Part shown: one piece after another, positions 3,346 through 60,690 of the stretch
Layout of the letters: every line of letters begins with the position of its first letter
How positions within the stretch are numbered: position 1 is the stretch's first letter
Assembly (NCBI GenBank): GCA_034780895.1
Contig: JAUZTB010000080.1
Span: 10,605,010-10,669,009, forward strand
DNA: 64,000 nucleotides
Direction: 5' to 3'
Source: Rhynchobatus australiae
Lineage: Eukaryota
The notes under the pieces: generated by a model
Told to the model about the DNA's origin: nothing
Database searches by the model: none
What the model saw: the letters and a program-made list of their open reading frames with translations, nothing else
Made by a program: the position numbers and the translations under genes

Positions 3346-3624
3346 CTAGGGAAAAAAGATGTTTAGAACAATTAGCCAGTGGAAATTCAGGTATATGAAA
3401 ATACAGAGTGGACATTAAATAATTACTTCAGGATTAGAAAGGAGAAATAAAAATTTAATATTGTGCCAGGTTTAACTAAATATGAAAGGTTGGTCTAACT
3501 AAATGAAGTATTCACTGTTATGAAGGAAATTGACAAGGTGCACCCAATACAAATGCAGACAAAAATTAACTCCGCTGAGTCCACTGGCAATGAAGAAAAC
3601 AAACTTAGATATTATCTTGTCTCA

Positions 3625-3892
3625 AAAAAAGTGTGGGTTCACGTCCCACTCCAGGATTTGAACACACAATCTAGGCTAACGTGTCAACTAAACTTTGAAG
3701 GAGTGACATACAAACAGAAGCACTGGTTTTCAGATACAGTTTTAAAATGAGAATACCCCATGGCACTAATGAAAGAGCAGCACCTCAGTATTACAACAAT
3801 AATTTACACTTCAAAAGTAAATCATTAGCTGTCAAGATTTTGAGGATGTCCTGAGGTCTTTGGAAATACTATATGAATGCGTTTTTCTTTAC
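3625..3892 (+). mobile_element. Deu-domain SINE (SacSINE1/AmnSINE1-like), internally deleted
   Basis: gggttcacgtcccactccagga...aatctaggct...cccatggcacta...ttacaaca...acacttcaaaagta..cattagctgt...gtcctgaggtc...ctatatgaatgc..tttcttt follows the recalled SacSINE1/AmnSINE1 layout. Confidence 0.6.
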
Positions 3893-6121
3893 TGCAACAA
3901 TAATTAGTGAAAACACATCAGATAAATTGACCACTTATTACACTGTGNNNNNNNNNNNNNNNACTGTTTGCAAATTGATGGCTGTATTTACAAAAGTTAC
4001 CAACCTCAAATGAGAGTGTGAAATAAAATGGGATGGTAAATTTTCAAGTTTATCCTCATCAACGATGTGTAATAACTGTCTAAGATAGGCAAGATGTTTG
4101 AGGCTTTGTTGACAGATTAACAAACTTTATTAAACAACTCCAGACCCAAGATGAATTTTTGGTCAGGCACATCACTGCCAATGCACTAATGTTTTTAACA
4201 TCTTTGAGCACTAAATTTATGGCACGTATTAATGCCAGTTAAATTCATTTAGGAAAGGATATAAAATGCTAACAGTAGTTTTTTTTAAAAGCTTAAAGAG
4301 GAAAAGAATTCCAGAAATTGCCAAACAAATGGATAATAACATGAGCCATCTGTACAAAAAATTTATGGATGAGCAGCTAGAAAGATGAAAATGGGATCCA
4401 TCTGAGGACTAAAGGTGTAANNNNNNNNNNAGCAGCACCCACTTAGAGAAAATCTATGACTGATTTTTTCACACCCCTCTACATCCCACAGGATTTCAGA
4501 ATATGCATTTAAATCTGGACTGCTGATATCACCAAAGCATTAAGGCAGAGAAACTATTGAACCTCTCAGTGATAAGGAGCCAATTAACATAAAATAGAAA
4601 AAACTGGAGAAACACAGATCAGTGACGGCCTCTAGAAGCAAAATACCTCCTGCATCTATTTCTGTTGCAGCCTGACATTTCCAAAGATTTCCCGCAATTC
4701 CTTCTGATCTCCAATCTCTTACTTGCAGATTTTAGGTAGAGAATCAGCCACAATCTTACTAAATGGCAAAGCAAGCCCAAAGGATTAAATATCCTACTCC
4801 TGCCACATTCCATTTTCTCCCTCATTACCAAATGTAGCTGATAATCAGCTCCTCAGTCTTTAATTATTACTACCCTTAACCGGCCTCGAGGAGCTCTGCA
4901 ACATCAGCACAAAGATCACTCTTTAGCTAACACCTTTGGCTCTCCCTTTCTGCACAAGTTATTGCTTCTAAACCCGTTGTTCCAGAGGACATCCGAATGG
5001 AGACAGGGACCATTAAATGAGGTTCTGAATGGAAAGAATGGATAGAGAAGGAAAAAATCTAGCATAAAACTGGAAGGGAATTATGAGATTAAAATATTTC
5101 AGTTTGAACCAGAGAAGGGAAAGGTGCAACATGACAATTGCATTAAAAAGGACAGGAAAGAGGAAAGAAACCTTGTACTCCCCTGGTTAACAACACTATA
5201 CATACACATGCCTTGCATAGAGCCACTGGGTTTCAAAATATATAACTCAGATTCACACAGAGAAAAGGTTTACAGAATACAGCTTTAAGGGGAACCACCA
5301 TTTAATAGATACAATTTGCATCAGAGTTGGAATCACAAATAAAAGTCTATCAAAGGTTCCCAACACCCATGAAAGAAAATGCAGAAGTTCTTCAGAAACA
5401 GTGAAGCAAGAGGTTTCCAACTGAAAGGTTTGTAGTATAGACCCCTTCGGATGAAGGATCTTCTGTACATTTCGAGTTATATTTTGGATTTCCAGGAGCC
5501 ACAGCTTTTCATTTCCAAATGGATAATGTACTACATTTACTTACAGGGGATGGGTTACTTCAGTATTGTTGACTACTTGTAAATCACACTGCAAACCACA
5601 CTATAGTTAAGCCCTCTTATCTTGAGCCAGGTAGTTTATCATCCAGAGAGGCAAGCTCCCCTCTGCTGACCATGATGGATTTCAGCTAAGATCGNNNNNN
5701 NNNNNNNNNNNNNNNNNNNNNNNNNNNNNNNNNNNNNNNNNNNNNNNNNNNNNNNNNNNNNNNNNNNNNNNNNNNNNNNNNNNNNNNNNNNNNNNNNNNN
5801 NNNNNNNNNNNNNNNNNNNNNNNNNNNNNNNNNNNNNNNNNNNNNNNNNNNNNNNNNNNNNNNNNNNNNNNNNNNNNNNNNNNNNNNNNNNNNNNNNNNN
5901 NNNNNNNNNNNNNNNNNNNNNNNNNNNNNNNNNNNNNNNNNNNNNNNNNNNNNNNNNNNNNNNNNNNNNNNNNNNNNNNNNNNNNNNNNNNNNNNNNNNN
6001 NNNNNNNAAAGAGAATGAGAAATGCCCACTAAATCCTTTCCAGATAACATGCAACCCTACACACCGAGTACACATAGAGGGCAAAATAAATGTGACTAAC
6101 AGCCACATGGTTTCTGGCTTC

Positions 6122-6480
6122 AAGGCAGCACAGTAGCACAACAGCTAGCTAGTATCACAGCTGCAGGGACCCTGGTTTGATACCAACCTCATGCGCTGTT
6201 TGAGTACGCATGACCTCCTGTGACCAGTGTGGGTTTCTGCTCGGTGCTCCAGTTTCCTTCCACATCCCAAAAATTTTCTGGTAAGTTAACCAGCAACTCT
6301 AAATAACACATTATAGTTAAGTAGCAAAAGAATATTGATGGGCATTTGCGAGGGAGAACAAGTTGCAGGGGGGCAGGGAACTAAAGGGGGATTGGGGCAG
6401 TAGGGGGGCACTATGGATTGCTCTGCTGTGACTCTGCATGGTCTAACAAAGCTGGATACGGGCATTTTATGATGAAGTAG
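6122..6480 (+). mobile_element. V-SINE / HE1-type SINE, old copy
   Basis: tRNA-like head (ggcagcacagtagc...gaccctggtttga) plus V-domain core gtgggtttctgctcggtgctccagtttccttccacatcccaaa. Confidence 0.7.
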
Positions 6481-7990
6481 TATCAAGATATAAAAACATG
6501 TTTCTTCACAAAGCCTTTGCCCACACCACCATGAGACCCAGGAAGTAAAAGGGACACCACTTTCTCCAAAGATTCAAATTTATTACATCAAATACAGAGC
6601 ACAATTCAGGTTTACTGGTCCTTGCAGAGGAACAGAAGTTCTGCGATTTAGTCCATCAGGTCTAATTTGCCATTCTTAGTCATGGCAGCTCTTTTGACCT
6701 ACTTTATCTTTCTTTTCTTATCTTAATACTTTTGCTCTAAGAATTTAATCTTATAATATACATCCTTTAAGTGTGTCAGTATCTACAGCCTTTTCAGACA
6801 GCACACACTACATCAGCATCTCATCTTGCACATTACTTCATCTGGAGTTGTTTTTAACCACATTATCTCAAATGCTATGGTTATATTCCCTTGGACTGGA
6901 CTCCCCCTCCTGAGGGAAAGGAGTGCTTCCTTCCTATCCTGTCAAATTTCATTCAACATCTTTATATTTGTATCATAATAAAATTGTCAGAAAAATGAAA
7001 ATTAGAAATGCAGTTAGAGATTACAAACATTCCCAACTTTTCTTTGAGATGGTGGGCTATCAGCAATGTGTCCAGTTTCCCAGTGCACATTTAAAAAAGC
7101 AGAAAGGGAGTGCCTTCCAAAGTTGAAAAGACTGACACAACCTGTGTATTACTCTCATGGAAATGGCTAAGTGGATAAGGTACTGGAAGCTTTATGTATC
7201 CCAGTTACAGGTGTTTTGGAGAGAATAAGCACTGAGCCATTATAAAGAAAGTTTTTTTTCCCCCCCACAGATCTTAGCAATGTCTTTCACTAGTGGTACA
7301 ATCTTGCCAAACATTACTCACCACTTGGGGGCCCTGAAACTTTCAAGGTATCAAAACCAAAAGGCTTGCCTGCAGGGTCTTGCAGTAATAATAGTGTTGA
7401 AGTAAGATTTTATTTTAAAAAGATACCTCATAGATCCAACCCAGACCAACAGGATACTTAGACTGCAAGTGGACAGCAACCTTTCCAAATGGCTTCACTT
7501 GTGAAGGGTGCAGCCACAGCTTCCACTTATACAGATGCAAGATGATTTGAAACAAGTTTCCCTCATTTTAGCTCAGTGCAGATCTAGTTTTTTTTAAAAA
7601 GTAAAATAATTGTATTTCAGAATGGTTAAAACCAGGTAGCTGGCTGACTCAGACAACAAACAAGTCACAAAAATAAAGCTTTTGAGGTTTAGTGCAGACA
7701 GTTTTCTGACCTTCAGTGAGATTTATATGATTTTAGAATCATACTATTACAGACTATTAATCTACATGAACCAAGGTGGAAAATACAAGGGAAATGGAAA
7801 GGAAAGTCCAAACGACACTAAGTGGGCTTAAATCATGCAGTTAATTCTCAATTTCTTATTCATTCTAATGTGTAGATATTCATGAATGAATTCTTTTTGT
7901 TTGTGTTCATCTGTGTGTGCAGATATACATGGATGTAGATATATTAAGAATAAATCCTTAGAACTCTGCCTTCAAAACAAAGTCTCTCAC

Positions 7991-8012
7991 CTTTGGTTTT
8001 TTGTTCTGTAAC
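7991..8012 (-). CDS. TNRC6B: TNRC6B 22-nt microexon (VTEQKTK/V)
   Basis: Minus strand reads ttttctttttctgtgtttcAG|GTTACAGAACAAAAAACCAAAG|GTgaga, with a CTGAC branch-point-like motif about 30 nt upstream. It bridges the phase-0 end of the 88-nt exon to the phase-1 start of the 339-nt exon, giving ATQKVTEQKTKVPE as in TNRC6B. Confidence 0.92.
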
Positions 8013-8654
8013 CTGAAACACAGAAAAAGAAAAGTGCTGGTCAGTTCAAAGTCATAAATTCACACCATCAGCAAGATCCTGCCTCAAAATCACCAGCAGC
8101 TAACAGGCTCCCAATACTCCTTTTACTATTGAGGCTAAGGTTGTAGGGAACTGACATTTTGCATCCATCTTCGACTAGTCTCTAGGGGATAATGCTGAAC
8201 AGCAAATATAAAAGTCATAAAATACCATATGGTGGCCATCATAATAGTATGCTCCTGAGAGCAGTTACCAGAAATAAAACAGGTTACTAACCCCTGAGTA
8301 ATGACAATTTATTTTCATTGCAGAATTAGAATACATTGTTACCCGTTCAACAGGGCAAAACAATAACTTTAAGTTAGCTGTAGTGGAACAGAACTTTATT
8401 CAATAGAGAGTTCTTTTGACCCTGTTTTAAGGAGTTGACATTCCAACGTTCAGACACAATGTATAATGCCAGACATTGGCAGGGTCAATTCCAATGATGT
8501 CACTGGGTTTGATTAGTGAATTGCTAAACTCGAGGGCCAGTTGCACAACCCTGATTTTTGGCCAGAATGCTCTGACCAGTGCAGAAGAGAAAGGTAGAAG
8601 GGAAAGTGCTACTGCATAAAGCATAAATGTCCACATTAATCCAGTGGAATGTTG

Positions 8655-8755
8655 AATATAGTCTGATGAAAGGTCATCAACCCAAAATGGCTTTTTCAAC
8701 AGATGCTGCCCGATTTGCTGAGGATTTCCAGCATTTTGTTTTTTATTTCCAACAC
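8655..8755 (+). mobile_element. Penelope-derived terminal fragment with decayed hammerhead-like core
   Basis: gtCTGATGAaaggtcatcaacccAAAAt...cagatgctgcccgatttgctgaggatttccagcattttg. Confidence 0.55.
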
Positions 8756-11259
8756 CAAAAGAATTTTGGTTTATGCTGCTGCAGATCTTGATTTCTGTAT
8801 AAATAATTGTGTTTGGAGCTTGATCTGGAACAAAATGGACATTACATTTAATTTCTCCTAAACAGTTCTTTTGCCTCAGGGGTGAAAAAAAGCCATCACC
8901 TTCTCACAACACAGCTCTCTCAATCATTATTAATTCAGCTAAAATGTTCTGTTTAAACACAAAATCACTTGAAGCTGATCACATTAACAAATTATGAAAG
9001 CTTTTGCTTGACTATTCACTTTCCCAAGTGCCCAGATTCTTATGTTCATCAACCCAATAAAACCCACAAGTTTTTGAAAACCTTGCTGTGTTGTGCCCGA
9101 GGCTCTTTCAGCACACTTAATCTTTTAAACTGCATTTATACAAGCAGATCTTGGTTTATAGCTTAACCACATTCAGCTGCTACAACTAAACACCTGTGAA
9201 GAACATTTATGCCTGTTGTCAAAGTCAACCTCAGTAACAAAAACAACTAAAATCAATTGTTCAGCAAAACCAAAACTACACAGGATTAACACTGACATCT
9301 GCAACATTTAACACTGCATGTATTTACACAGCTAGAAGCATCAAGAATGTTTACAAGAGTTAATTTGAAGCTGGTATCACTAAACCCTACTATTTTATGC
9401 ATACCCAAAACAAAAAGGGACATTATCCAAGGAATAGAAAAGATGAAGCATAAATACACAATAATGTCAACAGGGACAAGAGGAAACAATTACGTAGACA
9501 ATTTGGTGGATTTTCAGTAAAGGGATATAGAGTGAGCCTAAAACCAAACATTGCGAATAATGGTCTTTTCAACTGGTTGGTGAGAAGGCACTAACTTAAG
9601 GTAATCATAATAAAAATTAAAAGAATTTACAATGCAGANNNNNNNNNNNNNNNNNNNNNNNNNNNNNNNNNNNNNNNNNNNNNNNNNNNNNNNNNNNNNN
9701 NNNNNNNNNNNNNNNNNNNNNNNNNNNNNNNNNNNNNNNNNNNNNNNNNNNNNNNNNNNNNNNNNNNNNNNNNNNNNNNNNNNNNNNNNNNNNNNNNNNN
9801 NNNNNNNNNNNNNNNNNNNNNNNNNNNNNNNNNNNNNNNNNNNNNNNNNNNNNNNNNNNNNNNNNNNNNNNNNNNNNNNNNNNNNNNNNNNNNNNNNNNN
9901 NNNNNNNNNNNNNNNNNNNNNNNNNGGGGGAAGTTCCAACAGGCTACATGTGGACAAGAATGGTACTCATCAACAAATCCTCAAAGGAAAATAATTTTCT
10001 CTATGTTCATTTGGATGGGAATGGAATGGAAGCCAGAGCTCAAGCTCTTAAACTGTTCAGGAACAGAAAGCCAATATTGTGATATCAAGACCATTTCAGC
10101 ACAACAATGAAATTCCCAAGATAGTTTAAAAAAATACCCAAAGCTCCATAAAAATAAAACATGTTTTGCTTAGCCACTAAGTTTTACATGAATTTCTGCA
10201 TTCATTTTACTGCATGGTCAACCTTTCTGCAGAAGGGGAGGCTTGCTGATGATGCGTGGTGAGCAACTACAACTTACCTTTAGGGCCAAAGAGCTGTAAC
10301 ATAAACTTCAAAACTGCATTCAAATATACAATAATCCAAAGAAAAAAAGTATTTAAGTTTAAGGTTTCTCAAAAGCATCTCAATAAATTATAACTAACCA
10401 AGTTGACAGCTTCTAAATGCTCCATGCTTTGTTCACCTCATTCATCCCATTTAGATCTCTCTTCACATTATAGTCTTTAGTTTCCAAAATGTGTAATTGA
10501 GTGAAATCAATGGGCCATAAATTTAAGTTATAGTCTGTAACAAAATCTGACATAAGATATACAAAATCTCATCAACCAATTCAACATACAGTATACTTGC
10601 TTAAAATTAACATGACAAATCAAATAGGAAAAACACCCAAAAAAATTTAGAAACTCACTGGCGTCAGCCAATAAATGCTGGTTGTAGGAGTTAACTGCTG
10701 GCTTTGAATTATAGGAGACACAGTTTTCTATGGCAGATCATTAAATAGTTAAGACCCAATACCATGTCCCCTGCCCCTTCACATCCAAAAACTTTGGTAG
10801 AGTTCATGATAATGTATAATATTGCATGAATGCCAAAACAGGCTGGTCTTGGTATAGTAGGAAACTTCCATGTTCATCCTAACCCTGATACCTTGTGTTT
10901 GACAACAGTTATCATCAATAGAGTTAGTTTTGTTACGTGAGAGTGGAGAAAGGGAAAAAAGAAAAACTCAAAAACAACAGGGTTTTATTCCACTAAACTT
11001 TCGAAACTAGGGTTTTTCTGACTGGTCAGAGCTATATTTTTTTTTAAAACCAAGGAATATAATGTGAGTATATGTATTGCTAACTGCTGAGGGCTGCTTC
11101 CAAACAGAGGCAAATCCAAATGATTGAAATTTGTATATACTCCCAACTCTCAAGACAATGAAATCTTGGCTTTGTTACAACTTTCCATTCTACCACTAAA
11201 TAGAAAGCCTAATCCCAGCACAGATCACTGCTCTTGTGAAGGCAGAGGAAAAAAAATTA

Positions 11260-11590
11260 CTAGAATGGTCTAGGGATGATTGATTTCAGCTATGCACAGA
11301 CAGAAGCTAGGGTTCTTCCCCTTGGAGCAAAGATCAAAGCAGATTTAGTAGTGCAAGATCATGATGGATTGAGTCAAAAGAGGGAAACTGTTTCCATTAT
11401 CAGGTGGTTGAATGACTACAGGACATGGAATTAAACTGATGGGCAAATGATAGTGGTTTTGATCTGAAATTCAGTGCTTGTAAGGGTGGTGGAAGAGGCA
11501 ATCAGGGCTTTTATAAAGGGAGCTCAATGGGTATTTGTAGGAAAGTAATTTGCAGGTGCACAGGGAAAGAAATGTAGCCACAGGCAAAGG
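11260..11590 (+). mobile_element. CR1 LINE 3' fragment, decayed
   Basis: agggatg..gatttcagctat...agaagctagggttcttccccttggagc...actgtttcca...aggacatggaattaa, a typical CR1 ORF2 C-terminal region. Confidence 0.6.
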
Positions 11591-11849
11591 CTCAATTCTT
11601 TCTGAACTGAAATAATTCAAAGATCTAAATTAGACCAAGCTTAAATGTAAGGTCCCTTTGCCCTCACCCATCCCCATTTTTTCCCCAAATGAAATGCCAA
11701 CACCAAGGTCTGACAGCCGTGTTAAGATGACAGCTATGAAGAAACTGGATGCACTAGCTGCATCTTTCAAAATTCTACGGTTCCCACATACTGGAAAGAG
11801 CAAAAATAACATTTTGTTTAAGAAAGTAGGAGAAAAATAGGCTAGTTAG

Positions 11850-13101
11850 CCCAAATCAGTCAAGGAAATACTAGAATATATTATGATGGAAGTGGACTCT
11901 TGTTAAATAATAACAAGAATGGGCAGAGTCAACATGAATTAATGAAAGGGAAAAATCTGTTGGATTATTTTTTTGAGATTGCAATTAACAGCTGATTAGT
12001 TGATGCAGATGGAGTGTTTGGACTTTCAGAAAACCTTCACCAAGACAAGAGTATATTAAACAAAATTGGAGTTCAAGATTGGGGCAAAATAATGGCACAG
12101 ATCCAGACTGGTTAATGGACAGAATTAAGTTGGAATCAGTGGCAATTTTTAGATCGGGAGACAATGACAGGTGGGATGCTGCATAGATCAGATCTGGGGC
12201 CAGTTGTTCACAATCTACATCAATGATTTGGGGATTAGGGGATCAAACTCGATATACCCCGTTTTGCTGGTCATGAAAAGTTGGGTGGCAGTATAAACTA
12301 TGAGAAGAATGCCAAAGCACATCAGGGAGATACAGCCACATTAAGTGAATGTGACATGGCAAACAGAATATGATATTGGAAAATGCGCAGTCACCTACTT
12401 TGGTAGACAGTCTATTTGTTAAATGATGAGAGGTGGAAAGTGATGTTCAGAGACCTTGGCATCCTTGTACACAAATCACAAAGCTTGGAAGGCAAATAGC
12501 ATGCTAGCCTTTAATGCAAGAGGATACAAGAGCAGTTGTGCTCCAAGTATAGGGGGTGCTGGTGTGACTGCATCCAGAATATTTTGTACAGATCTGGTCT
12601 GCGCATTAGGTATATCCTGATACTTACAATCAAGGAAGTGCAGTCAAGATTTACCAGATTGATTCTAGGAATAGTGGGTTTGTTACACAAGGTGAATTAA
12701 ACAGACCGGGCATTACTCAAGTTTAGAATAGAGAGGTTTAGAATAGAGAGGTGATCTCATTGAACCTCATAGAATTCTTACCAGGATTTCACAGGGTAAA
12801 CACAAAGGTGATGTTTGTCTTGGCTAAGGTGTCTGGAGTCAGGTGTCAGATTCTCAAAGAATCGGTCTTTCAGGATAGATATGAAAAGAAATTCTCCACG
12901 TAGAGACTAATGAAGCTTTGGAATTCTCTATCCAAATGGGCTATGGAAGCTTAGTCACTGAGCAGATACAAGACAAAGGTCAATAAATTTTTAGGTAATA
13001 TGTGATGTGGGAAAAATAGAATGAGTGATTTCTTACTGAATGGCAAATCAGGCTTGAGGGGCTAAATGGCCTGTTCCTGCTTCTATTCCTCAGTTCTTAT
13101 G
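11850..13101 (+). mobile_element. CR1 LINE (RT region to 3' end), decayed
   Basis: Remnants of SQHGFMKG, DFQK.F, G..QGSVLGP.LFTIYINDL, FADDTKLGG and L.Y.VQ.WS motifs, plus a 3' tail ggcttgaggggctaaatggcct..tcctgcttcta. Contains a 15-bp tandem duplication at 12721-12750. Confidence 0.8.
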
Positions 13102-14759
13102 GCCATTGAGCAGATTGAATATAATATTTAAAAAAAGAGGTCATCTACTTCAATGAAAACTATTTATGACTCCTGTTTCTGATCACCACACTCTGATAGT
13201 TGTGGAGCAAAGGCTAACTTCAGCATTGATGTCCATCATTAGAAACCCCACAAACACTCAGTGCCCTGGGTCTCATGTGAATAATGCAGAATTACTGAGC
13301 AAAGCAAAACAGAACAATCAAACAAAAAGGATGCAAATATTTATTCAATGTTGATTGAAGGTAATAGCAACTCAGGATCAGGACAAGAGAAATACAGTAA
13401 GAGCTGAAGAGCCCAAAGATCATAATGTTCTGTGGTGGGCAGAAACTGAAAACTGCAGATTCATTTTCTTTCTGATTGCTATGGTGCAGAAACAAAGAAA
13501 ACATTTCAAGAACAGTCGGACAACTTCAAGTAGTAGAGATGCAAAAATGGATTTGTATGCTGGGGTTCTCCACCATCACCATAAATCAGAAAATGGCCAG
13601 TTCTTACAGAGACAGAGAAAACTAGTTATCCAAGTCTGAACTGGCCACTTCTACTGCAAGTCATCCATCTCTAATACTGGCTCAATTTTTCTCATTCCAT
13701 TAGCACAGCCTGATCATGCAAAGTTGGGTGGCAGTGTAAGCTATGAACAGAATGCAAAAGTATGTCAGGAAGATATAGGCATATTAAGTGAATGTGTCAG
13801 TACTGTATTTGCATCTTTTAACACCCTATATTGTCACTGTCTAACTCCAATTAACCAAATGACTGGATGATCTCTAAAACCTATCCCTATGGCAACCCTG
13901 CTCTCACCCTGTTACAGATATTTCCTTTATTCTATTCATCCCTTCCCCATCCTGTCTGCAGTTTTTCCCCTTTTCCAATTCTGACAAAGGATCTCCAGCC
14001 CAAAATATTAATAGTTTCTCTTTCTGTGAATGTGGTTTTTATTTCAGATTTCCAGCATCTGCATTTTTTTTTCCAAAAACTTTTATGTGCAATTGGAGTT
14101 ATTCTGCTGAATGAACTATGCAAACACCATACTTTTTATGCAGGTGAGTCGCCTGGATAAACATCCCCACTTAACAAGGAAGAGTTCAAGCCAGTTATTA
14201 AATTGTCAAAAAGCTTACTTAGCTTATAATTTTCTCCTTTGATATATTTATTCCCATTCTCATTCTCTATTCTATCACTATGAAACATTTCTATCTGTAC
14301 TTGAGTTTAATATAATTAATTACTGTCAAATTATGGATAGTTTGTTACCATTTTTCATGCCCACAAGTAACAGAGATAACAACTCCTAACTTTCTCTCAC
14401 AAACCAGTCTTATAACCAAACAAATGAGATAAAATCACCTAGCAAAGCCTGGACTGAAGCCTAGATCTAAAAGATGAACCACCAATGATTATTAGATGCT
14501 GCTCCCCATTTGGATTGCCAACAGTGCGTTCTAACTATTAGAAGCAGGTCATGGGCAAGGCTACAGTATACTGCAGTGAATCACAGAAGAACCTTGGAGC
14601 AACATAAGCTTTGTCAGTCAAATTGCATTCTGTAAAAGGAGGACACTGCATGAAATGAAATAAGGGGAAAGAGGGGAAAAAAAAACTGAGCATGAATCTA
14701 AGTTACACATCTGACTACAGTCTAAAGAACGTTCAGAAAAAATACCTAAACTCTAAGTA

Positions 14760-14856
14760 TCACACACAAATGCTGGAGGCACTCAGCAGGTCAAGCAGCA
14801 TCTCTGGGGGGAAATGAACAGTCGACATTTTGGGCCAAGCCCCTTCATCAGAGTGC
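14760..14856 (-). mobile_element. Penelope-derived terminal element with hammerhead-like core
   Basis: Minus strand ctCTGATGAaggggcttggcccAAAAtgtcgactgttcatttc...agatgctgcttgacctgctgagtgcctccagcatttgtgtgtg. Confidence 0.65.
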
Positions 14857-17800
14857 TTTTCAAAAAGTGAGCTATTCACCCTTTAATCTCGGAGAGCAAA
14901 TATTTCTCATTCCCGAGAGAAAGCTGGACACATTTCCTTCCTCTCAATTTTATCTCCATTTTCCTCAGGTTCACAAACATGTGGCAGTCTCTAACAAGAG
15001 CAAATCTGGGAAGGAGTCTGAGGCTGTAACTGGGATGGTAATTCAAAGAATCTTACCACCCATCTTGCCAGCAATAGCTCTTTCAGAAAGTGCTCTTAAA
15101 TTGCAGTTAGCACCAGTGAGTGACCAGGCCAGGTCAGGGCCAATTCCTGCTTTCTGATATTGGCTAAGCTTCCCGAGTTTGTCATCAATTGGGACATCCA
15201 ATTCTTAGCTCAAATCCTCAGCATAGCCTTCCTGATATTTCTTATGGTTACTACAAGGTGCTGGGCTTCAGGGTGAACTGGGTGCTGCTGTTAACACCTG
15301 TTCCTTTCTAAGGATTATGAAACTGATCTATTTTTAAAATTTAAAAAATGGGAAACTATTGTTCCATATTAAAATCCAGTGGTACAGACAACATTTGTTT
15401 CAGATACAGGATGTTCTGTGCAATCAATACTGGAAGTTGGCAACCCAGCCTTGCAAATGTGTCAAAATGATTAAATACAAAAACATTATTTGGAAAGTAG
15501 GTTTTAAAAAGCTACCAATCTTGTTTTTCATCATTCTGCTGGTCAAAGCTCAACACCATGCACAGTTTACTTAACGGCATAAACATTTCTCAAGTGAGCT
15601 TGCAGTCTGAATCATACACACTTTTGTTGATGTATCAATTCTTGTTGTGGTATGAAGGTTTTTCTTTTGCCAGTTCTCTGCTTTGTTGCTTGTGGAATCA
15701 TAGTTACACCTCTGTGGTCCATATTACTTGAAAGGCCAAATTTCACATGCAAGCTGGGATAGTAACTCTAGCAACTTCCAACTTTTGTAGGACACAGCAA
15801 AGAGCTGACATTAACTCCACTCAACATTTGCCCATGCTTTCCAGCACAGATCAACAAAAAGATTTTGGAGATGGAATTCCAAAACCATTGCCTCTTTCTG
15901 GCATGTTTTCATGAGCAAACTCATGACCTGGGATCTTACTGGATAGAAGTCAGAGCATTTTTTTCAGGGACAAATGGACAGAAGATTATGATCAAGCTGA
16001 ACCATCATGCAGAAGCTGCAATAATCACATGCCCTCTTCCCTAACAACTCTACAATAGAATCATTGCCATTGTCTGAATATTAAGTCTTAATGACATGTA
16101 CTAATCTGAAATATTAATAATGATGTAATAATTAACCAGCTATTTTGTTTTGCTGAGGGACAGTTAAATTTGATATAAGCAATACAATGATATATTCTGG
16201 AAAATGTACATATTTAATTCATGTAGAAAATCAAAAGGGTGAAGATAAGAATTTAAGGAAACGAACTACAAGCGACCCCTATAGTACAATGGGTTCCATT
16301 TCTAGAAAATGGTCCATATCACAATTTTCCATAACATGAAGCTGTGTGATTTGTGCATTCATGAAGAAATACATGAAAAAAATTGTATTTATTTACTTTT
16401 TTTCCCACTTTTAAATCTGAGAGAGCGGATTTTATTCCCCATCTCAAATTTTTGATTAGTGATTTGTGAATTCTGTAAGGGCAAATTTCTATTACCCAAA
16501 TGAAACCTACTAAATGTCTGCTGTGAAGCACCAGATCAATGGGAAGGTGTGGAGCAAGAATTTAGGTTATGTAAAAGGAACAGATTCAATTGTTATAGGC
16601 AACTTCAGTTTCAAGTTATTACAGGCAGAGTGAGCCATCCCTGAAGAGGATTCCAATAGTGAAAATATGATAATGGTTATAATATTAAATTAGAAACAAT
16701 TTGTCAAGGGACTCATAGAAACAGGAATACCACTCAGCAATTAGGAGATGATAATAGACAAAGACAGTAGGCAAAAAGCAGAGAAGACTTTGCCCAAAAT
16801 GGCATTGAAATAAAGCCCTGCCTCATAATGGGAAAGCAATTGAGCACAATAAGAACATTCAGTTTTATGATTGCTGATTTGAAAGTGCAAGGGGTGAAGA
16901 GAAGAAACTGGACAATGGTATTGTTGCAGGAGAAAAGAATACAAGAAAAAAAATGTACTTTAGGTGTAGAAATACTAGTATAGAGTAGATACTGACGCCC
17001 ACCATAGGTAAATAGCAGGGGAAAGATCAACATGGAACAGGATAAAACATAAAACTAGAGGCACTTTAACGACCTGAAACAAGGTAGAGGAGGTAAGACA
17101 CTAATAAAACAATGCAAAATAGAAAGAGATTTGCATAGCAGGCTTGTTAAAAGTCATTTCAACCATCTCAGTAGAATAATCACAGTATGCAAAGATATAA
17201 GCAAATGATGGAGCCCACCTACACCAATCTTAGAAAAGGGAAGAGAAAGTTATCAAAATATAGGCTAGTGAGCCCAACATGCTCTGATTAAAATAATCAG
17301 CAGGCATCCTGAATGAGTTACTGAAATATTGGTGCAATGTCACAGAGTTACAGAGAATGGAAACAGGCCCTTCAAGCTTGTGACAACCAAAGCTAAAAGT
17401 TAACATGGTTCTGTGGAAGAAAGATTTTGTTCTGCAGAAGTAATAGATCTTGAGGAAAATTCTGCAAACAAGACACAGATTTCAGCAAAATAAAGCTATG
17501 CCACTTGAATAGAATTTTTTTTTATATAATCACTGAAATTTATGACATAGGTGGTGATATTTCAGCCCATCATGTAGATGCTAGCCAAAAACTGAATTAC
17601 TTAGGAAACTCTCACTTCACAGTTCCCATTCTGTTATGCCGTGGGTACCTGGAAATGGGCCTGAAGGTAGTCAGAAAACGGTTGTTGAAATAGATTGGCT
17701 ATGATCTCAATAAATAGCAGAACAGGCGCAAGAGACTATATAGCCTAATACTACTACTACTTATATTCAGAAACAATTAATTCAAAAGGTTAGAAGACAT

Positions 17801-18317
17801 TGACTTAAGGCAAACATCAGACATAAATAGGACATTGACTAGAAGTAAATTCTAAATGCAGCAAGTGGAATGGCGTTCGGCACATAGTCATTAGCTCAGC
17901 CATTTGGAACAGAGCATACAATTTGGGCACGGTGCCAGAAACAAAATTAATTTGCACTTCACAATGAATTCAGGTGTTGGGTAACAGTTCAAATTATAGG
18001 GAAATTGCAGAGCGAATTTGGAGGAATCTAGATCGTCAGGAATAGCACACTGGATTGCACATAAGCAGAAATGTGGTAATATTTTATTGAGGAAAAACAA
18101 ATAATAGCAAAACAAACTAAATGGAACAGATCTCAGCACAAGATTAGGTAAGGGCACTGGATACTGGCTCAAATGAAACTAATGCTTCCCGTACAGTGGA
18201 AAGTCATTGAGCTTAATATATTGTTTAAGCTAGACTGAAGTTTCATAGAAAATGTTGTTTAATAACAGCAAAAATGTTACCCCAATAATATGTTAATATA
18301 CATTAGAAACAAGTGTT

Positions 18318-18535
18318 GAAAAAAGCTATGATGCTGGAGGAACTCAGTATGCCAGGCAGCATCCATGGAGAAGAGCAGGCAGTCAATGTTTTGGGTCAGG
18401 ACCCTTCTTCAGGACCCCTGACCCTAAACGTTGACTGCCTGCTTTTCTCCACGGGGTGCTGCCTGGCCTGCTGAGTTCGTCCAGCATCATAGTGTTTTTC
18501 ATCTAGATTCTAACACCTGCAGCCCTTTGTTTCTC
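18318..18535. mobile_element. Penelope-derived fold-back (inverted-repeat) element with TSD-like flanks
   Basis: Arms 18326-18400 and 18417-18492 are about 88% complementary, with a 16-nt loop. Flanks are agaaacaagtgtt (18305-18317) and agaaacagtgtt (18536-18547). Confidence 0.75.
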
Positions 18536-18913
18536 AGAAACAGTGTTCACTGGCTCTAGTTTAAGAGTAATGGAGCAGACAGTTGAGATTTCACTACTCC
18601 ATAAAAAGAATTCTAAATGTGAGAACTGAACAGCCCTAATTGTATACAGCTTATTTTCACTCATCTGAACAAGGTGTGCAGGAATTTAGCTGCAATTTAT
18701 ACTAAACCNNNNNNNNNNNNNNNNNNNNNNNNNNNNNNNNNNNNNNNNNNNNNNNNNNNNNNNNNNNNNNNNNNNNNNNNNNNNNNNNNNNNNNNNNNNN
18801 NNNNNNNNCTAAACCATCAAAAATGTTGTAGAAATAGCAATGCAAACCAGCACCAATTTAAAACAAAAACTTTATTTGAATACTCAGTGAAAGGATCAGA
18901 CCTTTTTCCTCAC

Positions 18914-19001
18914 CTTCTGAGTGGCGTCTTTCTTCTTTTTGTCCTCTTTTTTCCTTTTCTTTTCTTCCATTAACTGTTCTTCCTTTTCTTCTTCCTTCTC
19001 T
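18914..19001 (-). CDS. TNRC6B: TNRC6B 88-nt exon (charged N-terminus)
   Basis: ttgtAG|A GAG AAG GAA GAA GAA AAG GAA GAA CAG TTA ATG GAA...GCC ACT CAG AAG|GTgag encodes (R)[29 protein letters not shown], close to the recalled human N-terminus [31 protein letters not shown]. Confidence 0.93.
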
Positions 19002-38984: not shown

Positions 38985-39551
38985 GTCAGTCATAGAGCAT
39001 GGGAACAAACCCTTCGCCCAACGTCCATGTATTGGCCCAGTGTATTGGCCCAATACTCACTGTATTGCCCAGTGAGCTAGTTCCACCTGCCCGTGTTTGG
39101 CCCAGAGCCCTCCAAACCTTTCCTATCCATGTCATATCCATCTAGATGGCTTTTAAATGTTGTTGATGTGCCTGCCTTGACCACTATTTCTGACAGCTCA
39201 TTCCAAATATGCACCACCCTTTGTGTGAAGCTGCCACCCCTGATGTCCCTTTTAAATCTCTTGCCTCTGATCTATGCCCTTCTGTTTTTAGTCTTTTTCC
39301 CAGGAAAGGGGTGCTATGTGCTTCCACCCTATGCCCCTCATAAATTTTATACACCTCTATCAGATCACCCCTCAATCCCCTATATTCCAGGGAGTAAAGT
39401 CCTAGTCTACGCAACCTCTCCTTGTAACTCAGGCCCCCAAGTCCAGGCAACATCCTGGTAAATCTTTTCTGCATTGTTTCTCGCTTAATAACATCTTCCC
39501 TATAACAGGGTGACCAAGACTGTACACAATACTCCACGTGCGGCCTCACAT
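38985..39551 (-). mobile_element. CR1 LINE 3' end
   Basis: VRPHVEYCVQSWSPCYREDVIK.E..QKRFTRMLPGLGGLSYKERLRRLGLYSLEYRGLRGDLIEVYKI. Confidence 0.9.
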
Positions 39552-39797
39552 ATGGAGACATGTGGGGCAAGTGTTTTACGCAGAGGGTGGTGGGTGCCTG
39601 GAATGCGCTGCCAGGAGATGTGCTGGTGGAGGCAGGTGTGATAGAGGTGTTTGACAGGCTCTTAGATAGGCACATAATTATGCAGAGAATGGAGAGGTAT
39701 GAACCGTATGCAGGCAAAAGGGATTAATTTAATTAGGCATCATTAACTTAATTAATTTGGCACAACATCGTGGGCCGAAGGGCCTGTTCCTGTGCTG
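39552..39797 (+). mobile_element. CR1 LINE 3' end (different subfamily), abutting the previous copy in opposite orientation
   Basis: FTQRVVGAWNALPG and tail gggccgaagggcctgttcctgtgctg. Confidence 0.85.
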
Positions 39798-41659: not shown

Positions 41660-41783
41660 GATAAGATTTCTTTATTAGTCACATGTACATCAAAACACAC
41701 AGTGAAATGCATCTTTTTTTTCATAGTGTTCTCGGGGGCAGCCTGCAAATGTCGCCACGCTTCCAGCGCCAACATAGCATGCC
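41660..41783 (-). mobile_element. V-SINE/HE1-type SINE 3' tail
   Basis: Reverse complement of the tail at 28165-28232 (gggggcagcctgcaaatgtcgccacgcttccagcgccaacatagcatgcc). Confidence 0.75.
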
Positions 41784-41883
41784 NNNNNNNNNNNNNNNNN
41801 NNNNNNNNNNNNNNNNNNNNNNNNNNNNNNNNNNNNNNNNNNNNNNNNNNNNNNNNNNNNNNNNNNNNNNNNNNNNNNNNNNN

Positions 41884-42182
41884 TTGTAACTCAGGCCCCC
41901 AAGTCCAGGCAACATCCTGGTAAATCTTTTCTGCATTCCTTCTAGTTTAATAACATCTTTCTTATAACAGGGTGACCAAAACTGTACACAATACTCTAAA
42001 TGTGGCCTCACCAATATCTTACATAACTGCAAAATAACTTCCCAACTCCTATACTCAATGCCCTGACTGATGAAGGCCAACATGCCAAATGACTTCTTCA
42101 CCACTCTATCTACCTGTGATTCCGCTTTCAGTGAACTATGCACTTATAATCCCAGATCCCTCTGCTCCTTGACCCTCCCCCT
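41884..42182 (-). mobile_element. CR1 LINE fragment
   Basis: QVDRVVKKSFGMLAFISQGIEYRSWEVILQLCKILVRPHLEYCVQFWSPCYKKDVIKLE..QKRFTRMLPGL. Confidence 0.9.
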
Positions 42183-58355: not shown

Positions 58356-59787
58356 TTCCTTATCCACACAACCTTAGCATAGTATTAATCCTATTAGTTC
58401 ATTCCCAATATCCTGAATAAACAGTAGCACTGCAAAACTATTCTCACATTTGCCACAAAGAATACATCAAAAATACACATTTTGCAGAAAACTTGAAGAC
58501 ATGATAATGAACTTTACTTCAAATGCCAAGTTCCACTCCAATCATACTTACAAAGCAGAGGCACTCTTCACTCCTCCATTCCATTACCATCACCAGTCCT
58601 TCTCTGCTCCCAATTCCCAACCCTATTTCACTCTCTTTCCCAAAACAATAATACAACAATCTCTCCCAACTACGGGCAAGAGAGTAGGAAGATTGAAGTG
58701 CCTCACAGATCCAAGTCTGAACACACAATCTTCTTGTTATGCTTTCACCCATAAGACCACTAACAGTATAACCACCATTCACCTCCCTCTGCCCATCATC
58801 CTCTAAGCAGAACAGAACATACAGCAAATAAAACAATGCATCACATAGTACTCCAGGATCCCAAAAAAACTTACTGAACACATAAACATCAATCCAAACT
58901 TATGAAAGAAAAGCTCACACTGGAGTTTAATTTGAATATGGAACTGACTATGATCACAACCACGGCTTTCACCGTTAATAACTGGGTAACAATGAAGCGA
59001 GCAAGCAGTTTTCTGGACCTAACCAATTTAAAAACTGCAGCAGACTGTTTTATCTTTTTAAAAAATAAAAAGAGAAGATGTAAAATAAATGTTAAACTAT
59101 AAATATTCTAGCTAATAACTGCTTTGCAATGCCGATTTACAAAAATCTTCAAAATTATAATTAGCTAGACTACCCCGCAGTGTTGTAAGTAAGTTCAACC
59201 AGCTACTTGGCAGTTTACAGATCAAATCTAATTGGTTAGAAAGCACCCTTTGCCAAAGGGAGAAAAACCTCTTTCTATAATCAAAACGACTGGTGCAAGA
59301 ACAATTCTCCCTGTGCCAACTAGCCATTTATTTTGAAGATTGGTAAAACTGCATGAGAGCAAAATGATTTTGGTAAAAAAAACTTAGCATTCACTGCTCT
59401 GCCACACAATACATATTCGCAATGAAAATTTATCAGCAGCTGCTAATTTACAGCACGGCGGTATTTTGCAGAATCTTCAACCTTTCTGACTTTGAAAAGG
59501 AATAGCATCTTTAAAATTTAAAGCCACCATTTCCCCTCCCACCTACCCGTTTTCATAAAATGGCTGTGGCCTTTTTAAACCAGGCCCAGGTTCCNNNNNN
59601 NNNNNNNNNNNNNNNNNNNNNNNNNNNNNNNNNNNNNNNNNNNNNNNNNNNNNNNNNNNNNNNNNNNNNNNNNNNNNNNNNNNNNNNNNNNNNNACCCTG
59701 TAGCTGTTTGCTGCCAGACAGACTAAACAGTGTTCTTGAATTTTTTAAAAAAAGCCCAGCCCACAGGCATAGGCATCAGCCACAAAC

Positions 59788-59792
59788 CTCAT
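59788..59792 (-). CDS. TNRC6B: TNRC6B first coding exon end (ATGAG: Met plus 2 nt of Arg)
   Basis: Minus strand ...ctgcactttATGAG|GTttgt. The phase-2 end fits the next exon (ATG AG|A GAG = M R E). It lies just downstream of promoter-like motifs and implies a 40.8-kb first intron (19002-59787). The donor GTTTGT is non-optimal and the link is inferred. Confidence 0.7.
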
Positions 59793-59924
59793 AAAGTGCA
59801 GCAGTGCAAGGATCCAGCAAGTTGAGGCATTCAAGGCAAGAGCAAAAGAAGAATATTAAATCAAAAAAAAACTGATCTCTTCTCTTTTTTTAAAAAAACA
59901 AACGCTCAAAAGCCAGCAGAGACT

Positions 59925-60105
59925 GTGGCGGCCATTTTGGCAGGAACTTAAGAGCCAGCTTCTGTGGGAAGCTTTTATTTGTGACCTTCAGAGAGAGGCT
60001 GTCATGTGATCTATTGTCCCATCAATCAAATGGGGGGTGGGGTAAAGAAGAGAGAGAGGCTGAGCCCCACCTTCACTGGAAGCACAAGCGCTCTGATTGG
60101 TAGTT
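59925..60105 (-). promoter_or_regulatory. Putative TNRC6B core promoter
   Basis: Motif cluster upstream of the ATGAG exon: YY1-type CAAAATGGCCGCC (59927-59939, minus), AT-rich AAATAAAA (59973-59980, minus), E/M-box GTCATGTGA (60001-60009), GT/GC-box GGGGGGTGGGG (about 60032-60042), CCAAT on minus (60096-60100). No CpG island. The TSS cannot be determined from sequence. Confidence 0.55.
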
Positions 60106-60503: not shown

Positions 60504-60690
60504 CATTCCACCATAACCTACCCCCATCTTGCCATTGTCACATTNNNNNNNNNNNNNNNNNNNNNNNNNNNNNNNNNNNNNNNNNNNNNNNNNNNNNNNN
60601 NNNNNNNNNNNNNNNNNNNNNNNNNNNNNNNNNNNNNNNNNNNNCCTACCCCCATCTTGCCATTGTCACATTCCACCCAAATAACCTTAC
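60504..60690. repeat. About 37-bp minisatellite spanning a 100-N gap
   Basis: Unit cattccaccataacctacccccatcttgccattgtca, with copies on both sides of gap 60545-60644. Confidence 0.6.

What the first reader, a model, noticed from the sequence alone, without database searches (positions are those of the whole stretch)
59789..59830. uORF whose stop codon overlaps the TNRC6B start codon (ATGA overlap)
Seen: the minus strand reads ATG CCT CAA CTT GCT GGA TCC TTG CAC TGC TGC ACT TTA TGA (MPQLAGSLHCCTL*). Its TGA shares bases with the inferred main ATG (tttATGAg). Both ATGs are in weak Kozak context (T at -3; C or A at +4). Established: out-of-frame uORFs overlapping a main start repress it, and AUGA stop/start overlaps allow termination-reinitiation in some viral RNAs. 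Inference: translation of the core miRNA effector may be throttled here, favouring downstream starts.
Basis: partly seen in the sequence, partly recalled or inferred. Interest (0 to 1): 0.7.

Follow-up and report, generated by a model that had tools for sequence, protein, structure and literature searches.

The report
Ancient two-uORF leader of TNRC6B
The short reading frame overlapping the start of this cartilaginous-fish TNRC6B gene (a core microRNA-silencing protein) is real and kept in a distant vertebrate, and it is likely the weaker of two ancient upstream reading frames that together would hold down production of the protein.

Summary
The 13-codon ORF (minus 59830-59789) exists and ends on the TNRC6B ATG of a proximal, alternative first exon. 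Alone it is near chance: 18-21% of shuffled leaders or intronic ATGA sites have one, and the TGA follows automatically from ATG plus the AG|GT donor. But an unnamed, distant vertebrate record (L002) keeps its ATG, frame and length (37 of 42 nt; 19 of 24 outside my search pattern). Its human homologue (MADRVSAGF) is listed as translated in three Ribo-seq tables, is identical in mouse, and is translated over 3-fold more efficiently than the CDS. The overlapping ORF is in none of those tables. There is no TURBS motif, so viral-type stop/start coupling is unsupported. Best reading: a conserved two-uORF brake of ATF4-like layout, with the reported ORF as a likely secondary trap. The block abutting the ATG is also an 8mer plus 3'-supplementary match to this genome's own miR-17-family microRNAs, an untested feedback lead. 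No RNA evidence was obtained for this species.

The parts
59789..59830 (-). uORF2 (the finding): 13 codons, weak context, +1 frame, stop overlaps the main ATG
   Evidence: same ATG position (-38), frame and length in L002, 37 of 42 nt; no differences in runs X15 and X17
59906..59935 (-). uORF1: 9 codons (MAATVSAGF*), A at -3 and G at +4, ends 113 nt before the main ATG and 75 nt before uATG2
   Evidence: 26 of 30 nt in L002 with start, stop and length kept; human homologue MADRVSAGF at -146 called translated (rows of the same length and place)
59788..59792 (-). main TNRC6B ATG and the 5 coding nt of the proximal first exon; GT donor at 59787
   Evidence: P0012 junction, and 4 of 58 homologues start M-R-E-K-E
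59792..59808 (-). miR-17-family-like site: 8mer GCACTTTA (59799-59792; last A is the A of the main ATG) plus a 7-nt 3'-supplementary match (59808-59802)
   Evidence: seeds taken from mir-17 loci of this genome; best of 26 seed matches examined; function untested
59927..59941 (-). motif around uATG1 resembling the YY1 site (name recalled), so possibly also a DNA element
   Evidence: CCAAAATGGC at 59940-59931 in the window and in L002
59982..60028 (-). conserved promoter-like motifs: TGATTGA (60028-60022), TCACATGAC (60009-60001), TGAAGGTCA (59990-59982)
   Evidence: all three in the same order in L002; promoter role inferred
18914..19001 (-). exon 2 (88 nt) with the next in-frame ATG, Met13, at 18970 (T at -3, G at +4), 32 nt after the uORF2 stop in the spliced RNA; intron 1 = 40,786 nt
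   Evidence: the motif EEQLME holding Met13 is in 45 of 58 homologues and 5 of 58 are annotated to start there

Best explanation
The ORF is the second of two upstream AUG reading frames in the leader of TNRC6B's proximal first exon, both kept between this cartilaginous fish and a distant vertebrate, and together they likely act as a brake on TNRC6B translation. Shown: the anatomy, the conservation in L002, and Ribo-seq calls for the human homologue of uORF1 with over 3-fold higher efficiency than the CDS. Inferred: most scanning ribosomes start at strong uATG1 and stop after 9 codons; the minority that leak or resume scanning meet weak uATG2 75 nt later; those that start there end on top of the main AUG and would not use it, being lost or restarting at Met13 32 nt on; the rest start at the weak main AUG or leak to Met13. 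The ATGA overlap is a by-product of ATG followed by the donor's AG, not a coupling signal.
For: uATG2, frame and length kept in L002; 19 of 24 nt identical outside the search pattern, against 44 of 79 columns in the spacer (shuffled spacer 0.45 +/- 0.04) and 25 of 60 in the intron. uORF1 start, stop and length kept, with 2 synonymous and 2 non-synonymous changes. Human uORF1: peptide and -146 position; 30-nt uORF with Ka = Ks = 0 to mouse and in the list of uORFs over 3-fold above their CDS; also. The main frame is closed by TAA in the L002 leader, so the block is not a conserved N-terminal extension. Review passage: translation of an overlapping uORF and of the main ORF is mutually exclusive. 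TNRC6B is dosage-sensitive and TNRC6 proteins are described as translationally controlled.
Against: uORF2 is in none of the human tables searched: no TNRC6B row among 1,209 overlapping uORFs, none among 4 TNRC6B rows of a cut file, no KHCCTL string in the files; I never saw the human sequence of uORF2. With 19 of 24 nt kept, a 3-nt ATG survives about half the time without selection on it. Conservation is at nucleotide level (10 of 13 sense codons identical), more than a mere brake needs. Only one distant record, found with a pattern covering the last 15 nt of the ORF. The two close relatives are about 98% alike throughout, so they do not discriminate. The statement in the review concerns uORFs that overlap substantially; here the overlap is 4 nt.
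Confidence: 0.52

Rival explanations
1. uORF2 is a passenger. The exon end is conserved as a splicing or promoter-proximal element in front of a non-consensus donor and a 40.8-kb intron, and only uORF1 controls translation.
For: About 1 in 5 random ATGA sites has such an ORF; weak context; not called in the human tables; conservation runs on into intron +1..+8 (7 of 8); promoter-like motifs nearby are conserved too.
Against: The gap-free conserved block starts about 7 nt above uATG2, and the 38-nt distance is exact in L002 while the spacer above it has changed length (75 vs 80 nt). Weakly used 13-codon ORFs under a dominant uORF are easily missed by periodicity-based callers (own knowledge).
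Confidence: 0.3
2. The block is kept as a miR-17-family site lying on the start codon: with ribosome traffic thinned by uORF1, AGO-TNRC6 complexes would bind there and damp TNRC6B's own synthesis; ribosomes on uORF2 would sweep them off.
For: 8 of 9 mir-17 loci of this genome have the seed AAAGTGC. The site is an 8mer with a 7-nt supplementary run and has the lowest duplex energy of 26 seed matches in the window, L005 and L006; shuffles of the upstream 21 nt reach the run in 9 and the energy in 50 of 2000. TNRC6B ranks 27th of 13,035 mRNAs for predicted 3'-UTR sites.
Against: Noticed after the fact. L002 was selected on this block and is weaker (68 and 264 of 2000). These microRNAs hold AGTGC twice, so any tandem GCACT repeat scores as seed plus supplement. 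5'-leader sites are generally ineffective (own knowledge). The 5p arms were cut from hairpins by the seed position, not from small-RNA data.
Confidence: 0.13
3. ATF4-type stress switch: after uORF1, slow re-acquisition of initiator tRNA under eIF2-alpha phosphorylation lets ribosomes pass uATG2 and start at the main ATG or Met13, raising TNRC6B under stress.
For: Same layout: short strong uORF, spacer, out-of-frame overlapping uORF; ATF4/GCN4 as the model of reinitiation after uORFs.
Against: uATG2 is weak and only 38 nt above the main ATG, a narrow window; no stress data for TNRC6B were found (listing only).
Confidence: 0.12
4. Termination-reinitiation: ribosomes ending uORF2 restart on the overlapping AUG as in AUGA viral junctions.
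For: The AUGA overlap exists and is kept in L002; some viral cases work without an identified TURBS.
Against: No TGGGA between uATG1 and the stop in the window or L002 (motif); the upstream ORF is 13 codons, not a long ORF; the overlap is automatic from ATG plus AG|GT; no shared fold in the two leaders (by eye).
Confidence: 0.06

Closest known systems
Human/mouse TNRC6B 30-nt uORF (NM_001162501:65-94 in Ji 2015, PMC4739776; ENST00000335727_49, MADRVSAGF, in PMC11788427)
   Same: Homologue of window uORF1: 9 codons, 7 of 9 residues identical, -146 vs -143 from the main ATG.
   Different: Catalogue rows only; my searches found no paper on its function, its presence in cartilaginous fish, or the second, overlapping uORF.
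Out-of-frame overlapping uORFs (uoORF/oORF) of vertebrate mRNAs
   Same: AUG upstream, out of frame, stop within the CDS; 1,209 human cases in one table.
   Different: Overlap is minimal (4 nt); translation of this one is not shown.
ATF4 / GCN4 delayed-reinitiation leaders
   Same: Short permissive uORF followed by an overlapping out-of-frame uORF.
   Different: Second uATG weak and only 38 nt from a main ATG that is itself weak; stress induction untested.
TURBS termination-reinitiation of caliciviruses and influenza B; AUGA junctions of victoriviruses
   Same: AUGA stop/start overlap.
   Different: No UGGGA motif, no long upstream ORF.
microRNA sites at uAUGs in 5' leaders (Ajay 2010, PMC2842251; abstract only)
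   Same: Idea that microRNAs bind 5' leaders at upstream AUGs.
   Different: That model pairs microRNA 3' ends with uAUGs; here a canonical seed 8mer ends on the main AUG inside a uORF.

Membership tests
overlapping uORF (uoORF) | AUG upstream of and out of frame with the main start | tested here: met
   -38, +1 frame, in window and L002
overlapping uORF (uoORF) | stop codon at or beyond the main AUG | tested here: met
   TGA at +1..+3 of the CDS, before the donor
overlapping uORF (uoORF) | lies in the mature mRNA | tested here: inconclusive
   no RNA contig covered it; human transcript ENST00000335727 starts 194 nt above the ATG in the same exon; gene model P0012
overlapping uORF (uoORF) | translated and repressive | tested here: inconclusive
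   not listed in the human tables searched; the largest catalogues were unreadable; repression needs a reporter
TURBS termination-reinitiation | stop and start overlapping or within about 20 nt | tested here: met
   AUGA (rule)
TURBS termination-reinitiation | motif 1 (UGGGA) 40-90 nt above the stop | tested here: not met
   absent from the 147-152 nt above the stop in window and L002 (definition)
TURBS termination-reinitiation | reinitiation after a long ORF | tested here: not met
   13 codons
ATF4/GCN4-type leader | short, efficiently used first uORF | tested here: met
   9 codons, strong context; high efficiency in human
ATF4/GCN4-type leader | downstream inhibitory uORF that captures reinitiating ribosomes | tested here: inconclusive
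   present but weak context; no initiation data
ATF4/GCN4-type leader | main ORF induced by eIF2-alpha phosphorylation | not tested
   no stress data set examined; one search gave a listing only
miR-17-family target site | 8mer seed match | tested here: met
   GCACTTTA at 59799-59792 against seeds from own-genome loci
miR-17-family target site | position in a 3' UTR, out of the ribosome's path | tested here: not met
   lies in the 5' leader, inside uORF2
miR-17-family target site | AGO binding and repression | not testable with these tools
   no CLIP/CLASH data seen

The most novel reading that the evidence does not exclude
The mRNA of the microRNA effector TNRC6B carries, since the origin of jawed vertebrates, a self-limiting switch at its start codon: a strong uORF clears ribosomes from the lower leader, so that a miR-17-family/AGO/TNRC6 complex can sit on an 8mer-plus-supplementary site covering the AUG, while the weak overlapping uORF sets how often that complex is swept off and how often Met13 is used instead.
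Probability: 0.1. Interest if true: 0.82.

Novelty: new member of a known kind. Interest (0 to 1): 0.42.

Why it matters
TNRC6B is haploinsufficient in people, and TNRC6 levels are reported to be set at translation downstream of mTOR and to gate microRNA activity in quiescent cells. My searches found no cis-element named for that control. A leader of about 150 nt with two uORFs kept from cartilaginous fish to other vertebrates gives exact bases to mutate, points to 5'-leader variants worth checking in patients, and suggests a way to raise TNRC6B by blocking uATG1. If the miR-17 site works, it would be a rare seed site at a start codon and a direct feedback loop on the silencing machinery.

Tried and rejected
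RNA evidence: no RNA holder listed. Of 5 guessed-RNA runs laid, X2 and X3 laid nothing, X1 and X4 gave short pieces above 59936, X12 a 37-nt stray match; none covered 59788-59830; DNA run X18 laid nothing. A filter can drop contigs, so this is no evidence either way. Protein search with the leader part of P0012 among shorter proteins: 0 of 6 candidates scored. Pattern scans for uORF1 in viral and prokaryote contigs: 0. L003, the second of 2 metagenome hits, matches 21 nt only and was dropped as chance. The record of L002 is not held, so its downstream exons were not seen. Conserved non-AUG N-terminal extension: rejected, the main frame is closed 15 nt above the ATG in L002. The TGA directly before uATG2 is not in L002. 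ATG depletion in the spacer: not significant (P of none 0.20 and 0.34). Shared leader structure: single-sequence folds differ. Supplements without a TNRC6B row: PMC10032668 (6 files, one cut; its main catalogue has a 16-codon floor, recalled), PMC4890304 (1 file), PMC11685710 (8 files, one not searched). Unreadable: PMC7530721, PMC13010147, Supplementary files 6, 7 and 10 of PMC10908861; not held: two initiation-site/uORF papers asked for by recalled ids. Any of these may list uORF2. Earlier scan findings: none relevant.

Full report
Observation. On the minus strand 59830-59789 reads MPQLAGSLHCCTL*, and its TGA shares bases with the ATG at 59792, which is followed by AG and a GT at 59787. Both ATGs have T at -3. 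The stretch is single-copy in the genome.

Gene. The large exon at 1132 and below is TNRC6B: 58 homologues, the 14 best from sharks and a ray at 93-96%. Exon 2 begins at 19001, 40,786 nt downstream, in the phase that turns the 5 coding nt of the first exon into M-R-E-K-E. Of the 58 proteins 4 start so, 5 start at Met13, and P0012 (bamboo shark) reads this very leader in frame into that junction. Most shark models use another N-terminus; two of its exons lie beyond the window in this genome (C80:10686653-10686742 and L006:4118-4192). The reported exon is thus an alternative, proximal first exon. I obtained no RNA covering it in this species, so its start site is inferred.

Chance. An ATG-ORF ending on an ATGA occurs in 882-989 of 5000 leader shuffles and at 69 of 323 intronic ATGA sites. 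The stop is automatic: ATG followed by the donor's AG always spells TGA in the +1 frame. The overlap alone is therefore not evidence of design.

Conservation. Two related genomes (runs X15, X17) show no change in either uORF, but they differ at only 10 of 606 and 3 of 400 positions overall. A 19-nt pattern scan of metagenome contigs gave 2 loci; L003 is a 21-nt chance match, L002 aligns over the whole leader and has a CpG-rich upstream region, so it is likely a distant, amniote-like vertebrate (taxon inferred). In L002 uATG2 is again at -38, in the same frame, with 13 codons (MPQLAGFKHCCTL; 37 of 42 nt). Outside the pattern 19 of 24 nt are identical, against 44 of 79 columns in the spacer and 25 of 60 in the intron. 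The block is conserved, but at that identity an ATG would survive about half the time unselected, and this is one record.

At 59935 an ATG with A at -3 and G at +4 opens a 9-codon ORF ending at 59906. L002 keeps start, stop and length (MADRVSAGF; 26 of 30 nt). A supplementary row of PMC11788427 (PRICE calls) lists this peptide for human TNRC6B at -146. Ji 2015 (PMC4739776; supplement rows, sheet list and passages) lists a 30-nt TNRC6B uORF, identical in mouse and in the set translated over 3-fold more efficiently than the CDS. Yang 2024 (PMC10908861; rows of one cut file and passages) lists a 30-nt ATG uORF at the matching place. That the Ji and Yang rows are the same ORF is inferred from length and position. 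None of these lists the overlapping ORF: no TNRC6B row among 1,209 overlapping uORFs, none among 4 TNRC6B rows, no KHCCTL string. Larger catalogues could not be read, and the human sequence of uORF2 was not seen.

Mechanism. Shown: layout, conservation in L002, catalogue calls for human uORF1. Inferred: uORF1 takes most ribosomes; those that leak or resume scanning meet weak uATG2 75 nt later; starting there excludes the main AUG (review passage, PMC10275272, said of uORFs that overlap substantially) and leaves loss or restart at Met13, 32 nt past the stop (motif in 45 of 58 homologues). The result would be low, adjustable TNRC6B output with a Met1/Met13 mixture (0.52). The passenger reading of uORF2 remains open (0.3). 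The layout resembles ATF4 (passages) but stress induction was not examined (0.12). Viral coupling fails two of three defining tests: no UGGGA motif and no long ORF (PMC3542737 passages) (0.06).

A further lead. The 8 nt ending on the A of the main ATG are GCACTTTA, the 8mer match to the seed shared by 8 of 9 mir-17 loci of this genome. A 7-nt supplementary match lies at 59808-59802. The site has the lowest duplex energy of 26 seed matches in the window and its neighbouring 17.7 kb, both strands; shuffled flanks reach its run in 9 and its energy in 50 of 2000. L002 is weaker (68 and 264 of 2000) and was selected on this block. TNRC6B mRNA is already among the most heavily predicted 3'-UTR targets (PMC7229836 passages), and microRNA binding at uAUGs has been proposed computationally (PMC2842251 abstract). 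I give it 0.13 as a working site.

Promoter. TGATTGA, TCACATGAC, TGAAGGTCA and CCAAAATGGC occur in the same order in L002. The last resembles the YY1 site (recalled), so uATG1 may be held partly as DNA; the conserved stop and synonymous changes, and the ribosome data, argue that the ORF counts as well.

Novelty. Full-text searches for TNRC6B with uORF (9 papers), with upstream open reading and conserved (6), with promoter, isoform and first exon (9), and with miR-17 and feedback (108, 25 listed) showed no title or abstract start on this leader (listings only, plus one preprint checked). uORF1 is catalogued in human and mouse; its depth of conservation and the second uORF appear undescribed in what I could search. 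The class is well known. Context for importance: haploinsufficiency (PMC13115724 passages) and mTOR-dependent translation of Tnrc6 (10.1101/2022.07.17.500356 passages).

Verdict. Observation confirmed; interpretation partly supported; new member of a known kind; interest 0.42, with a 0.1 chance of a feedback switch worth 0.82.

Noticed in passing
window 59906-59935 (-): Strong-context 9-codon uORF inside a YY1-like motif (name recalled; also loosely like the TISU short-leader element, recalled); the best-supported regulatory element of this leader.
   Followed up: yes
window 59792-59808 (-): miR-17-family 8mer plus supplementary match ending on the main ATG.
   Followed up: partly
window 59982-60028 (-): Three promoter-like motifs conserved in order in L002; they resemble homeodomain, E-box and nuclear-receptor half sites (names recalled).
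   Followed up: partly
L004:1504-1572 (-) and L006:4118-4192 (-): Coding exons of the distal TNRC6B isoform, about 18-22 kb above the proximal exon; models P0003 and P0011 read the L006 exon in another frame and add about 15 residues that I did not locate.
   Followed up: partly
window 3347-18913 (-): Homologues have about 7 residues between exon 2 and the exon at 3346 (P0009 shows VTEQKTK), implying a micro-exon that I did not locate.
   Followed up: no
window 60517-60672: The same roughly 28 nt stand on both sides of the N gap 60545-60644, which looks like an assembly overlap; another gap lies at 59595-59694 just inside intron 1.
   Followed up: no
window 41724-42143 (-) and 39187-39723 (-): Intronic frames with peptide resembling CR1/LINE reverse-transcriptase fragments (recalled motif).
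   Followed up: no
L007-L015: Nine mir-17-family hairpins in three clusters (C83, C107, C127); L015 is below the Rfam cut-off and has an unusual 3' half.
   Followed up: no
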